Part shown: one piece after another, positions 42,501-45,500 of the stretch
Numbering within the stretch: the first letter of the stretch is position 1
How the letters are laid out: each line of letters begins with the position of its first letter
Assembly: GCA_013152815.1 (NCBI GenBank)
Contig: JAADFO010000072.1
Span: 1 to 57,356 of the forward strand
DNA length: 57,356 nt
Direction of reading: 5' to 3'
From: Nanobdellati archaeon
GTDB lineage: Archaea; Nanobdellota; Nanobdellia; Woesearchaeales; JAADFO01
Position numbers: made by a program

Positions 42501-45500
42501 TCGCCCTTCTTGATTATCCCCGCGAGAAAGGTCGAAGCGAAGGCATCCCCTGCGCCGGTCGACTCGACGATCTTGAACCTGTGGGCTACCGCATGATAGA
42601 GGTGATGTCCGTCGGTGGCCCATGCTCCCCCTGGACCGTCGGTGATGACCACGAGCGGGACCGTCTCCTGAAGTTTCCGGAGCAGATGCTCGATGGGCCG
42701 CTCGGTCTTGAATCCCTCACCGTCAAGCAGGGTCTGCGCCTCTTCCCTGTTGAGCACCAGGATGTGAGAAGCATCCAGCAGAGGCTGTATCTTCTTCTTT
42801 CCCAGACAGACCAGATACTGAGAAGGGTTGAAGCATATCCTGCTCCTGTTCTTTGCGGCATGGACGGCCAGGTCTTTGAGCATATCAAGGGAGGAGCCCA
42901 TCATGGAAGCGAAATAGAACCAGGATGTCTTCAGCCGGGAAGCCTTGAGTCGAGAGAAGCTGCCGCGGTCGTTGCAGCCTTTATAGGTGAGGATGGTGCG
43001 GTCGTGGGCGAGGGAATCCAGGATGATGGAATAGCCTGTCATCTCCTTGCCGACGACACCGAGAAAGTCGATCTTCTCCTTCCTGAGAAAGCTCTGGATC
43101 TGGCTGCCGTTCTCATCATCGCCGATCACTCCCACATAACCGGTGGAGAGACCGAGACGTCTGAGGCAGGTGGCCGTATTGGTGCCGCCGCCGCCGATGG
43201 TGAACATGAGCCTGTTGATGATGATCTTCGAACCAGAAGGGTAAGCGAGGAAGTCTTCTTTGCCGAGCGCACCGGAAAGCGAGATGAGCTCGCTCTTGTC
43301 GGTATGGGCAAAGACATCCACGGTTGCTGACCCGACGGTTATCACATCATACATGGGAATCCATTGGTCTCTTTCCTTTATAAAAGTTATTATATGCTAA
43401 CAGCCATGCGTTGACAGCCATACGTCAACAGCGTTAACAGCATATGCGTTATTAACATGATGGCATCCGACAGGAAACATTATTACAGGAAACATTCTTT
43501 TACTACAGGAAAGTATTGAGCTAACTTTTTATAAATCTGCACTGTCAGGGAAGTCGTCATGGCTGAACTCAAACGGGTCCTGAACTTTCCCTCCCTGCTT
43601 CTGATCACGATCAATTCCATCATGGGGACCGGCATCTATTTCCTGGTGGCTGCAGGAGCGCGATATGGAGGACCTGCTTCCATCATCTCCTGGGTCATCA
43701 TGGCCTGTTTCGCTGTCTACATCTCTGCCTGTTTCGGAGAGCTTTCAGGCATGTTCCCCAAGGCAGGGGGGGTCTATGAGTATGCCAAACAGACCTATGG
43801 CCGGTTCTTCTCGTTCCTGGTCGGCTGGCTTACGTTCATCCTGGGAAATCTCACCATCGCCATGCTTGTGGTGGGTGCCATCCAGTACCTGCTCCCTGTG
43901 GGGGGAGAGCTCGTGAAGATCGGCATCTCCATCCTGTTCCTCATCATCTTCAACTATATGGCCTACCGCGGGATGAAGACATCGGCCATCATGCTGATAG
44001 CGTTCTCGGTTATAACACTGATCGTCATCTTTTCCATCCTCATCCTCGGAAGCTTCCACATCAACCCTGCAAATTTCCATCCATTCTTCAGCAAAGGAAA
44101 ATTTGCCATCCTCATCACCATCTTCTTCATCATGGAGACATTCTTCGGCTGGGAATCTGCGGTGAATCTCGCCGAGGAGACCAACGATCCTGAGAAGGTC
44201 ATCCCGAAGGCGCTGGTCATAGGGACAGGTATCATCTCGGTCATTGCCATTGCTCTGGCCATCGTGGCCATAGGAACCCTGGGAGCCGACAGGCTCGGGC
44301 AGAGCAGCGCTCCGCTGGCAGATATCATCCTCAGCTTTCTTGGAGAGAAAGGAAGGGAGATCATCACCCTCGCCACCTACCTGGCCATCATCGGCTCGGT
44401 AGCCGGCTGGGTGGTCTCGTCCCCGCGGCTGGTGCTGGCGCTCACCCGGGACAAGCTCTTCCTCTCCCACTTCGACAAGATCCACCCGGTCCATCATACA
44501 CCCTATCGGGCGATCATATTCCAGGGGATCACCTCGGCCATCCTTGTCATCGTCGGCTCGGGGTCCTATACAAAACTGCTGACCCTTCTGGTCCCCATGG
44601 CCCTGATCATGTACTCCATCGTCCTGTTCTCGGTCACCATACAACGTTTCAAGAACCCTGACCATCCCCGGCCGTTCCGGGTCCCCTTCGGCAAGACAGG
44701 GCCCATCCTCATGATATTCGTCTTCGGCGCACTCATGGCGACGTGGCTGCGTGTAGAGCCCGGTGCCATCCATCTCCTGAACCTGGGCCTCTCGCTCCTG
44801 GGAGTGGGTATCCCTCTCTATTTCCTCATAGGCCTTTACTATGACCCTGAGATGATCAGAAACGCCAATGACCTGACCGCCTATTTCTCGCTCTTCACCG
44901 AAGACCTCCTCATCCCCAGGAGGATACGGAAGGAGCTTTATACCATCCTCGGCCCCATCGAGGGGAAGACCGTGCTTGAATACGGATGTGGCGTCGGTAC
45001 GCTCACGGTGGACCTCACTGAGATGGTGGGCCCCGAGGGGAAGGTCTTTGCGGCAGACATGTCCAAGAACCGGCTGAAGATCACCCAGAAGAGATACAAC
45101 AGGGCGCTTTGGGACTCCTATGAACGGAAGCATGGCAGGATGATACCCATCTATGATGAAGAGCTGGTGCTCCGGGTCCATAGCTCCATCAGTCGGGCAG
45201 ACCTCGTGGTCTCCATCGGGATGCTCAGCTATGTCCAGGACATCCATAAGATATTGCGGGAGATGAACAGCATCCTTCCCAACGGAGGGAAGATCATCTT
45301 CATAGAATATGGGGACTACTTCAAGATCGTCCCCAATCCTGAATGGCTGGAGAACAACAGCATCATCGAGAGGATCTTCCGGGAAAGCGGTTTCAGTGTA
45401 CAGGTCGAAAGAAAGAAAGGCCTCTTCTGGAACTACATCTATGTCTACGGCATCAAGAGCGAGAATGATGTCGCGTTCATCTGATGCAGATGTGCGTTGA

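What a model noticed while it worked through the whole genome (the two positions that open the first line are those of the whole stretch)
43559..45484. Amino-acid permease fused to a SAM methyltransferase
g01449 (641 aa) joins an APC-family amino acid/polyamine permease (residues 8-393 and further helices) to a class-I SAM methyltransferase domain (454-600). I read it as a transporter that methylates its cargo as it enters (or senses it), i.e. uptake coupled to chemical trapping in a scavenging symbiont. Transport-coupled methylation by a single chain would be a new transport principle.
Evidence so far: Pfam AA_permease_2 8-393 and Methyltransf_23 454-600; sequence in call 111. A search with residues 400-641 found 109 proteins of 352-1122 aa; 108 carry both permease (PF13520/PF00324) and methyltransferase families, 34-63% identical, those with names nearly all Woesearchaeota/Nanoarchaeota. 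Paper search amino acid permease+methyltransferase domain+fusion protein+archaea: 0 papers.
(Added by a program. Inside this text positions count along the whole contig: contig position 1 is position 1 of the stretch shown here. "Call 12" and the like, gene names such as g00115 and contig names such as C1 are that model's own, and its searches are not shown. The text may have been shortened before it was handed on; [...] marks where a part breaks off. The agent that wrote the report below was given it as the finding of a first reader that could run no searches.)

Follow-up and report, generated by a model that had tools for sequence, protein, structure and literature searches.

The report
Amino-acid carrier with SAM-binding domain
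A tiny symbiotic-type archaeon makes one protein that joins an amino-acid membrane carrier to a methyltransferase-shaped domain inside the cell; the design is common in its relatives and unstudied, and the extra domain more likely senses the methyl donor SAM and regulates the carrier than methylates the incoming cargo.

Summary
The fusion is real: one 641-aa ORF, a 12-helix APC carrier (1-427) plus a complete class I methyltransferase fold (428-641). It occurs in 46 of 301 genomes of the class. This scan found the family before on other DNA (at least 8 notes).

The cargo site is AdiC-like (W284, E199, Y352). The aromatic outer gate is replaced by Glu193: E or D in 135 of 135 fusions, F or V in 23 of 23 unfused relatives. 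This points to a cationic cargo.

P0001 keeps its SAM motifs, as do 97 of 135 members. The ribose-binding acid changed at least 15 times. Fourteen members look SAM-dead yet remain under purifying selection. Twelve paralogs lost the carrier's GTG motif but kept the domain. Relatives add a voltage sensor (11 of 135) or an HATPase-like tail. No neighbour pathway uses a methylated cargo.

Best reading (0.42): a carrier regulated by SAM/SAH binding. Not found in the papers searched. Nothing is shown experimentally.

The parts
43559..45484 (+). Whole fusion ORF, 641 aa (P0001); the only APC permease found in this genome (90.8% complete)
43559..44839 (+). APC/LeuT-fold carrier, residues 1-427, 12 predicted membrane helices
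   Evidence: Pfam; model; fold matches y+LAT2 Z 45.0, AdiC Z 44.3, GkApcT Z 42.4
43625..43633 (+). TM1 G23-T24-G25, the amino-acid backbone-binding motif (AdiC G25-S26-G27)
   Evidence: G-T/S/A-G in 122 of 135
44135..44137 (+). Glu193 at the position of the aromatic outer gate (AdiC Trp202): the family signature
   Evidence: E132/D3 of 135 fusions; F22/V1 of 23 unfused class relatives
44153..44155 (+). Glu199, equivalent to AdiC Glu208 (distal gate; pairs with Tyr352 = AdiC Tyr365)
   Evidence: E in 133 of 135
44408..44410 (+). Trp284, equivalent to AdiC Trp293 (cation-pi floor of the binding site)
   Evidence: W in 118 of 135, G in 10
44840..45484 (+). Class I SAM-methyltransferase-fold domain, residues 428-641, following TM12 (cytoplasmic by APC topology, inferred), with N-terminal lid helices 430-451
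   Evidence: 3dh0 Z 20.7, rmsd 2.7, 186 aligned
44978..44998 (+). SAM motif I, E474-Y-G-C-G-V-G480, intact in this protein
45056..45058 (+). Motif II acid D500 (ribose-binding, by recalled class I convention), intact here; D/E in 106 of 135 family members
45428..45430 (+). Trp624 in the basic-hydrophobic beta6-beta7 hairpin; kept in 123 of 135, including clades with an eroded motif I; lost in the voltage-sensor clade
43528..43535 (+). TTTATAAA, a TATA-box-like site 23 nt before the ATG (archaeal consensus recalled; a leaderless transcript is inferred)
   Evidence: sequence
42323..43354 (-). Divergent neighbour, a PfkB-family kinase (context only)
45596..46198 (-). Convergent neighbour rpsG (S7), end of the RNA polymerase/nusA/rpsL/rpsG cluster; rpsG lies in 27 of 124 related loci (context only)

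Best explanation
A secondary carrier for a cationic amino acid or amine (Arg/Lys/Orn, or an agmatine- or polyamine-type compound) whose cytoplasmic methyltransferase-fold domain binds SAM/SAH and acts as a built-in regulator. It ties uptake to methyl-donor status rather than methylating the cargo. SHOWN by sequence and models: both folds are complete; the carrier site is AdiC-like with a Glu outer gate; this protein's SAM motifs are intact; the domain persists under selection after losing SAM motifs; relatives add sensory modules. INFERRED: that it transports, what the cargo is, that SAM binds, that binding changes transport, and the direction of regulation.
For: (1) The carrier site is stricter than the SAM site: 115 of 115 closest relatives keep T24/E193/E199/W284/Y352, against 102 of 115 for the motif II acid, 101 for Y558 and 22 for the middle Gly478. 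A true methylase of the same order, fibrillarin, keeps its motif II acid in 25 of 25 parsed loci (of 30 fetched) at similar divergence, 51% versus 50% identity, against 106 of 135 here. (2) Motif I changed at least 3 times and the motif II acid at least 15 times on the permease tree. (3) 14 of 135 lack two or more of four core SAM positions, yet close pairs among them have pN 0.08-0.12 against pS 0.50-0.65 in the domain. (4) Modular add-ons typical of regulated transporters: an N-terminal KvAP-like voltage sensor in 11 of 135; an HATPase/GHKL-like tail in 4 representatives, tested on P0146 (Atlas 0.96, TM 0.67-0.70); DUF3108 in one. (5) Co-directional neighbours include 5 Na/H exchangers, 2 Na/Ca exchangers, 1 P-type ATPase and 3 response regulators among 68, and no SAM-cycle or methyl-amine pathway gene. 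(6) Precedents: SAMTOR senses SAM with a class I MTase domain (PMC10883374, passages); SLC9C1 joins transporter, voltage sensor and ligand-binding domain (PMC13095418, passages). (7) This genome has MetK-type synthetases and SAH hydrolase, so a SAM/SAH ratio exists to be sensed.
Against: P0001 and 97 of 135 members keep all four core SAM positions; in the widest set (300 sequences) E474 is acidic in 94%, G476 94%, G480 96%. Residues around the presumed acceptor pocket (S552, Y558, F588, W596, W624) are 80-94% conserved, as in an enzyme. Many class I methylases need no catalytic residue (own knowledge). Some 'eroded' motifs, such as the f59 clade's N-x-G-A-S-S-G with D, resemble fibrillarin's and may still bind SAM. 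The fibrillarin loci were the top-scoring ones, which biases that control. 15 of 46 fusion genomes show no SAM synthetase. No interface between the domains was tested, and covariation gave no usable inter-domain signal.
Confidence: 0.42

Rival explanations
1. The cargo is SAM itself or a related sulfonium/adenosyl compound (SAM import, SAM/SAH exchange, S-methylmethionine). The C-terminal domain captures it or gives trans-inhibition.
For: Glu193 replaces the bulky aromatic gate and appears exactly with the fusion (135 of 135 versus 0 of 23), so cargo and domain may have changed together. W284 suits a cation. APC carriers for such cargo exist: E. coli MmuP is annotated S-methyl-L-methionine transporter; yeast Sam3 is recalled. 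The SAM-consuming Dph2 gene is the commonest neighbour, in 32 of 124 loci, 20 adjacent and divergent. 15 of 46 fusion genomes show no SAM synthetase, including single-contig G095.
Against: 31 of 46 fusion genomes have their own MetK. Within the order the share is the same with or without the fusion (15 of 22 versus 16 of 31, p 0.27). 158 of 255 genomes without the fusion also show no synthetase. MmuP has F at the Glu193 position and G at W284. The E193-fusion link is one evolutionary event. Dph2 adjacency may be plain synteny.
Confidence: 0.18
2. The domain is an active methyltransferase tethered to the membrane that acts on something other than the cargo (a protein, the carrier itself, a lipid or a small molecule).
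For: Intact motifs in P0001, a complete fold with lid helices, nearest folds among small-molecule and protein methylases (3dh0, DhpI, Hvo_0019-Trm112, UbiG, ChlM; Z 19-21), and a basic-hydrophobic hairpin that could touch the membrane. The 12 paralogs without the TM1 GTG motif keep motif I in 12 of 12. Four representatives with a strongly decayed permease keep the domain (P0193, P0200, P0245, P0265).
Against: No intact stand-alone copy of the domain was seen: the shorter-protein search gave 10 hits, 9 of them family fragments, some starting inside the permease, apart from one eroded 216-aa ORF at a contig end (L048). There is repeated loss of the SAM motifs and no specific substrate family: all NCBIfam methylase scores are far below cut-off.
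Confidence: 0.17
3. One reading: the carrier imports a cargo and the fused domain methylates it on exit (group-translocation-like trapping, e.g. making a betaine-type osmolyte).
For: Both active sites look intact in P0001. Glu193 arose with the fusion. pTM 0.82 for the whole chain suggests a fixed domain arrangement. Amine N-methylases (phosphoethanolamine MT, sarcosine/dimethylglycine MT) are among the fold hits, but not above others. Ion-homeostasis neighbours would suit an osmolyte role.
Against: The two halves decay independently in paralogs. In G065 and the f57 genomes the only full-length copy found has an eroded motif I. No neighbour uses a methylated product. Methylating an amino acid would spoil it for protein synthesis in a scavenger and cost one SAM per molecule (inference). 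15 of 46 genomes show no SAM source.
Confidence: 0.13
4. The domain is a structural cap or oligomerisation module (for example joining the tandem paralogs into hetero-oligomers); SAM binding is incidental.
For: It is retained under purifying selection after motif loss. Canonical, voltage-sensor and GTG-less paralogs sit side by side in L099, L107 and L118, and in part in L090.
Against: 97 of 135 keep all four SAM positions over deep divergence, which a purely structural domain would not need. This genome has a single copy.
Confidence: 0.1

Closest known systems
AdiC (E. coli arginine/agmatine antiporter) and SLC7-type APC carriers: y+LAT2, GkApcT, BasC, CAT
   Same: LeuT/APC fold (Z 40-45); TM1 G-T/S-G; equivalents of AdiC W293, E208, Y365 and N101 (roles of W202, W293, E208, Y93, Y365 from PMC4970712, passages).
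   Different: The aromatic outer gate W202 is Glu; Y93 is Gly; about 20-25% identity; no decarboxylase neighbour; none of these carriers has a C-terminal methyltransferase fold.
APC-fold carriers with cytoplasmic C-terminal domains: KimA and cation-chloride cotransporters (NKCC1, KCC3)
   Same: Same membrane fold followed by a soluble domain (fold hits); that these domains are regulatory and nucleotide-binding is recalled.
   Different: Their soluble domains do not superimpose on this one (rmsd 12-15 A when included); they carry ions, whereas this site keeps amino-acid-type motifs.
SLC9C1 (sperm Na+/H+ exchanger with voltage sensor and cyclic-nucleotide domain)
   Same: Transporter plus voltage sensor plus ligand-binding domain in one chain, as in the 11-member voltage-sensor clade of this family (PMC13095418, passages).
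   Different: Different transporter fold; P0001 itself has no voltage sensor; in that clade the SAM motifs are eroded.
SAMTOR (eukaryotic SAM sensor)
   Same: A class I methyltransferase fold used to bind SAM/SAH for regulation, with an altered glycine motif (PMC10883374, passages).
   Different: Soluble, unrelated in sequence, and it acts through a protein complex rather than an attached carrier.
Small class I methyltransferases (Aquifex 3dh0, DhpI, UbiG, ChlM, ArsM, UbiE/MenG)
   Same: Seven-stranded fold with N-terminal lid helices, Z 17-21; motifs I and II present in P0001.
   Different: At most about 20% identity, no hit stands above the rest, family cut-offs not reached, and they are not fused to carriers.
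Membrane domain + spermidine-synthase-like fusions (fungal NHMT; bacterial MFS/spermidine synthase fusions, recalled)
   Same: A membrane domain joined to a SAM-fold domain; NHMT is an active protein methylase (PMC10349129, passages).
   Different: NHMT has a 7-TM domain rather than an APC carrier; P0001 lacks the acid of the GxG(D/E)G aminopropyltransferase motif.

Membership tests
APC superfamily amino-acid carriers | LeuT-type fold with 12 membrane helices | tested here: met
APC superfamily amino-acid carriers | TM1 G-S/T-G and TM6 unwound motif binding the amino-acid backbone | tested here: met
   G23-T24-G25 and F196-G197-W198-E199
APC superfamily amino-acid carriers | Measured transport of an amino acid or amine | not testable with these tools
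   needs reconstitution
AdiC/PotE/CadB acid-resistance antiporters | Trp293, Glu208 and Tyr365 equivalents | tested here: met
   W284, E199, Y352
AdiC/PotE/CadB acid-resistance antiporters | Aromatic proximal gate (Trp202) and Tyr93 | tested here: not met
   E193 and G89
AdiC/PotE/CadB acid-resistance antiporters | Curated family score and a partner decarboxylase gene | tested here: not met
   109.7 bits versus cut-off 574; no decarboxylase among 68 co-directional neighbours or the 34 commonest neighbour clusters scanned
Class I SAM-dependent methyltransferases | Seven-stranded Rossmann-like fold | tested here: met
Class I SAM-dependent methyltransferases | Motif I (acid, GxGxG) and motif II acid | tested here: met
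   met in P0001 (EYGCGVG, D500); all four core positions in 97 of 135 family members
Class I SAM-dependent methyltransferases | Methyl transfer to an acceptor | not testable with these tools
   no substrate known
UbiE/MenG and ArsM | Curated family score; for ArsM several catalytic cysteines (recalled) | tested here: not met
   MenG 45 versus 420 bits, ArsM 29 versus 263; only one Cys in residues 428-641, inside motif I
Spermidine synthase / aminopropyltransferase | Acid in the GxG(D/E)G motif (PMC10349129, passage) | tested here: not met
   V479, Val in 99 of 104; no Spermine_synth hit in the genome
SAM/SMM permeases of the APC family (MmuP; yeast Sam3 recalled) | Shared binding-site residues; occurrence where SAM synthetase is missing | tested here: inconclusive
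   MmuP differs at positions 193 and 284; no link to synthetase absence; Sam3 not compared

The most novel reading that the evidence does not exclude
A single chain that imports a cationic amine or amino acid and methylates it with SAM as it leaves the cytoplasmic vestibule: group translocation by methylation. The Glu193 gate would have evolved for this cargo, and the voltage-sensor and GTG-less paralogs would be regulatory subunits of a heteromer.
Probability: 0.13. Interest if true: 0.9.

Novelty: new variant of a known kind. Interest (0 to 1): 0.6.

Why it matters
If the best reading holds, this is a transporter directly gated by SAM/SAH through a methyltransferase fold, a prokaryotic parallel to SAMTOR-type sensing. 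One clade would also be an archaeal voltage-sensor-bearing carrier; the only such transporter in the passages I read of a voltage-sensor review is SLC9C1. It is among the few nutrient carriers kept by many reduced DPANN genomes (46 of 301 searched, down to about 0.4 Mb), so its cargo would tell what these symbionts take from hosts or surroundings. The Glu-for-aromatic gate is an unusual APC binding site. All rivals can be separated with one purified protein and two point mutants.

Tried and rejected
SAM importer compensating for a missing synthetase: rejected as a general rule. The class-wide excess of MetK in fusion genomes (31 of 46 versus 97 of 255) vanishes within the order and rests on three families outside it. 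The PGK control tracked the order and was uninformative.

KsgA as motif control gave only 5 of 46 hits at my threshold and was dropped; fibrillarin was used instead (5 of 30 loci were not parsed).

MI-APC covariation (300 sequences, Meff 234) was dominated by phylogeny and gave no inter-domain contact. Complex prediction of carrier with C-terminal domain was not available, so the interface and any dimer are untested, and model coordinates could not be read.

An apparent four-residue insertion in TM6 against BasC was an alignment artefact. N19 is not AdiC N22.

No Rfam match, so no known SAM riboswitch, in 43200-45800. The sigma-70 scan was at chance level.

Polyamine context is only suggestive: deoxyhypusine synthase is present; TiaS_FLD, pyruvoyl arginine decarboxylase, spermidine synthase, MetE-type synthase and PNP/MTAN were not found in a 90.8% complete genome. 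By eye, from recalled motifs, the genome also has NSS- and SSS-type carriers (not Pfam-tested).

Paper searches that found no description of the fusion: (listings only, open-access library; no supplements read, and genome-paper supplements could list the gene).
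Full report
OBSERVATION. The ORF at 43559-45484 (+) encodes 641 aa without a break. Pfam places AA_permease_2 at 8-393 and several class I methyltransferase models at about 454-600, above cut-off. No NCBIfam permease or methylase family reaches its cut-off. AlphaFold on a 104-sequence alignment gives pLDDT 89.4 and pTM 0.82, with 12 long helices to residue 428 followed by an alpha/beta domain. The membrane part matches y+LAT2, AdiC and GkApcT (Z 45.0, 44.3, 42.4). The C-terminal domain alone (pLDDT 93.7) matches small class I methylases, 3dh0 Z 20.7 and DhpI Z 20.6, with many others within 3 Z units, so no substrate can be read from the fold. The gene lies between a divergent PfkB kinase and the convergent end of the RNA polymerase/rpsL/rpsG cluster. 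It is the only APC permease found in a 1.49 Mb, 90.8% complete genome.

DISTRIBUTION. The family is larger. By my count 46 of 301 class genomes have a full-length copy, 22 of 53 in the own order; several have two or three. 446 stretches in species-representative genomes encode a relative. Of the 120 nearest permease relatives, 118 list a methylase family and the other two are truncated. A search for shorter proteins found family fragments and one generic 29% identical methylase. A profile of the C-terminal domain against 1.84 billion representatives gave 109 hits below 1e-30. Of the 148 newly listed proteins, 82 have the permease directly upstream; the rest are mostly fragments, decayed permeases or unrelated multi-domain methylases. 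Named records are Woesearchaeota, Nanoarchaeota, Nanobdellota or 'archaeon', with one labelled Thermoproteota (P0277). Records titled Methanosarcinales or bacterium share the same gene order (e.g. Dph2 adjacent in L011), so I take them to be mislabelled (inference).

CARRIER SITE. Alignment to E. coli AdiC taken from the genome record gives G25-S26-G27 = G23-T24-G25, N101 = N97, E208 = E199, W293 = W284 and Y365 = Y352, but W202 = E193 and Y93 = G89. In AdiC, W202 is the proximal gate, W293 the cation-pi floor, and E208/Y93/Y365 the distal gate (PMC4970712, passages). Position 193 is Glu in 132 and Asp in 3 of 135 distinct fusions from my loci, and Phe in 22 and Val in 1 of 23 unfused APC carriers of the same class. 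This is one evolutionary event, but it shows that the binding site was remodelled together with the fusion. An added acid next to a cation-pi Trp argues for a cationic cargo: a basic amino acid, a polyamine or a sulfonium (inference). One clade of 15 mostly replaces W284 by G, N or others and probably carries something else. The genome has deoxyhypusine synthase but no spermidine synthase hit, which would fit polyamine uptake but proves nothing.

SAM SITE. P0001 has EYGCGVG and D500. Across 135 fusions the four core positions (acid 474, G476, G480, acid 500) are all present in 97; the motif II acid is present in 106. On a FastTree of the permease part, motif I changes at least 3 times and the motif II acid at least 15 times. 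Fibrillarin from the same order keeps its acid in 25 of 25 parsed loci (of 30) at similar divergence; these were top-scoring loci and kin are not independent. Fourteen members lack two or more core positions: 10 of the 11 voltage-sensor members, 3 of family f57, and L042. Close pairs among them still show pN far below pS in the domain (0.08-0.12 against 0.50-0.65 for the closest; pairs were chosen on permease identity above 70%, which inflates the domain-to-permease ratio). Conversely a 12-member paralog clade (support 99) has lost the TM1 GTG motif but keeps motif I in all 12, and four representatives have a heavily decayed permease with a retained domain. Against my reading: in the widest set most members look able to bind SAM (acid 474 in 94%, G476 94%, G480 96%, acid 500 80%), and pocket residues S552, Y558, F588, W596 and W624 are 80-94% conserved.

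ADD-ON DOMAINS AND NEIGHBOURS. Eleven of 135 have a 150-aa N-terminal domain matching the KvAP voltage sensor (E 3e-6). Four representatives carry a 200-aa C-terminal extension; tested on P0146 it is HATPase/GHKL-like by features (0.96) and by predicted structure (TM 0.67-0.70). One has DUF3108. Canonical, voltage-sensor and GTG-less paralogs stand in a row in L099, L107 and L118. In 124 loci the commonest neighbours are Dph2 (32), rpsG (27), rpoA'' (15), DUF5652 (14) and RimK (13). Na/H exchangers (8), P-type ATPases (7), Na/Ca exchangers (5), K channels (5) and a lone voltage-sensor-like gene (9; my label by eye, no Pfam hit) recur. Of 68 co-directional adjacent genes scanned (of 71 found), 8 are cation transporters and 3 response regulators; none is a SAM-cycle or methyl-amine enzyme.

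SAM SUPPLY. The own genome has two MetK-type hits and SAH hydrolase. Among the 301 genomes, 31 of 46 with the fusion have a bacterial-type MetK and 0 of 46 the archaeal type; 97 of 255 without the fusion have either. Within the order it is 15 of 22 against 16 of 31 (p 0.27). The protein therefore does not stand in for a missing synthetase, though 15 carriers of the fusion show no synthetase at all.

MECHANISM. I read it as a cationic amino-acid or amine carrier with a SAM/SAH-binding regulatory domain (0.42). Rivals: SAM-type cargo with a capture or feedback domain (0.18); a membrane-tethered methylase with another substrate (0.17); cargo methylation on entry (0.13); a structural module (0.10). 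Shown: folds, motifs, conservation patterns, independent decay of the halves, add-on domains. Inferred: transport, cargo, ligand binding, coupling.

KNOWN AND NEW. It is an APC carrier by fold and motifs and a class I fold by structure, but it is not a member of the AdiC, UbiE/MenG, ArsM or spermidine-synthase families (membership table). It would work like KimA, the cation-chloride cotransporters or SLC9C1 (carrier plus cytoplasmic ligand domain) using a SAMTOR-like sensor. For SLC9C1 (PMC13095418), SAMTOR (PMC10883374), NHMT (PMC10349129), AdiC (PMC4970712) and LysP (PMC12764776) I read search passages only; the regulatory roles of the KimA and CCC tails, yeast Sam3 and bacterial MFS/spermidine-synthase fusions are recalled. 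Eight searches of the open-access library found no description of the fusion; subscription papers and supplements were not seen. This scan noted the same family at least eight times on other genomes, including the voltage-sensor clade, which I had found here before looking.

VERDICT. Real, conserved, uncharacterised: a new variant of a known kind. Interest 0.6.

Noticed in passing
L031:1042-3369, L032, L050, L090, L099, L107, L110, L118, L123, L124, L138: Clade of three-part proteins: KvAP-like voltage sensor, APC carrier with intact site, eroded methyltransferase fold. The architecture parallels SLC9C1.
   Followed up: partly
P0140, P0146, P0149, P0172: Carrier plus methyltransferase fold plus a 200-aa HATPase/GHKL-like tail (tested on P0146 only); a possible transporter-sensor. 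Response-regulator genes follow the fusion in L104, L133, L134, L135; no link to these four proteins was tested.
   Followed up: partly
L099, L107, L118 (and in part L006, L013, L046, L073, L090, L092): Tandem arrays of canonical, voltage-sensor and GTG-less paralogs, often next to RimK, a putative ATP-dependent Zn protease, DUF5652, a K channel or a lone voltage-sensor-like gene; possible heteromer.
   Followed up: no
P0193, P0200, P0245, P0265: Heavily decayed APC-derived membrane domains that still carry the methyltransferase fold.
   Followed up: partly
L025:1501-4059: 853-aa member with an extra C-terminal DUF3108 domain.
   Followed up: partly
L072:5241-5897 and 31 other loci: A short (about 220 aa) Dph2 diphthamide-synthesis gene is the commonest neighbour, usually divergent; it is absent from this window's locus.
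   Followed up: partly
window 43400-43512: Short direct repeats in the divergent intergenic region (two 15-nt copies at 43470 and 43485 with a third partial copy; a 14-nt pair at 43400 and 43414); possible regulator sites, or chance.
   Followed up: partly
G000:C20:707-1126 and G000:C10:167-577 (L014, L015): Two MetK-type SAM synthetase hits in the genome, one typical and one divergent; no archaeal-type synthetase. In the class, bacterial-type (73 of 301) and archaeal-type (59 of 301) synthetases are nearly mutually exclusive.
   Followed up: partly
window 40966-42240 (+): 424-aa ORF with four predicted membrane segments and a soluble tail; only a sub-threshold Pfam hit (DUF2339).
   Followed up: no
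G000, whole genome: No TiaS_FLD hit and no KsgA hit at 1e-30; may be incompleteness or divergence.
   Followed up: no
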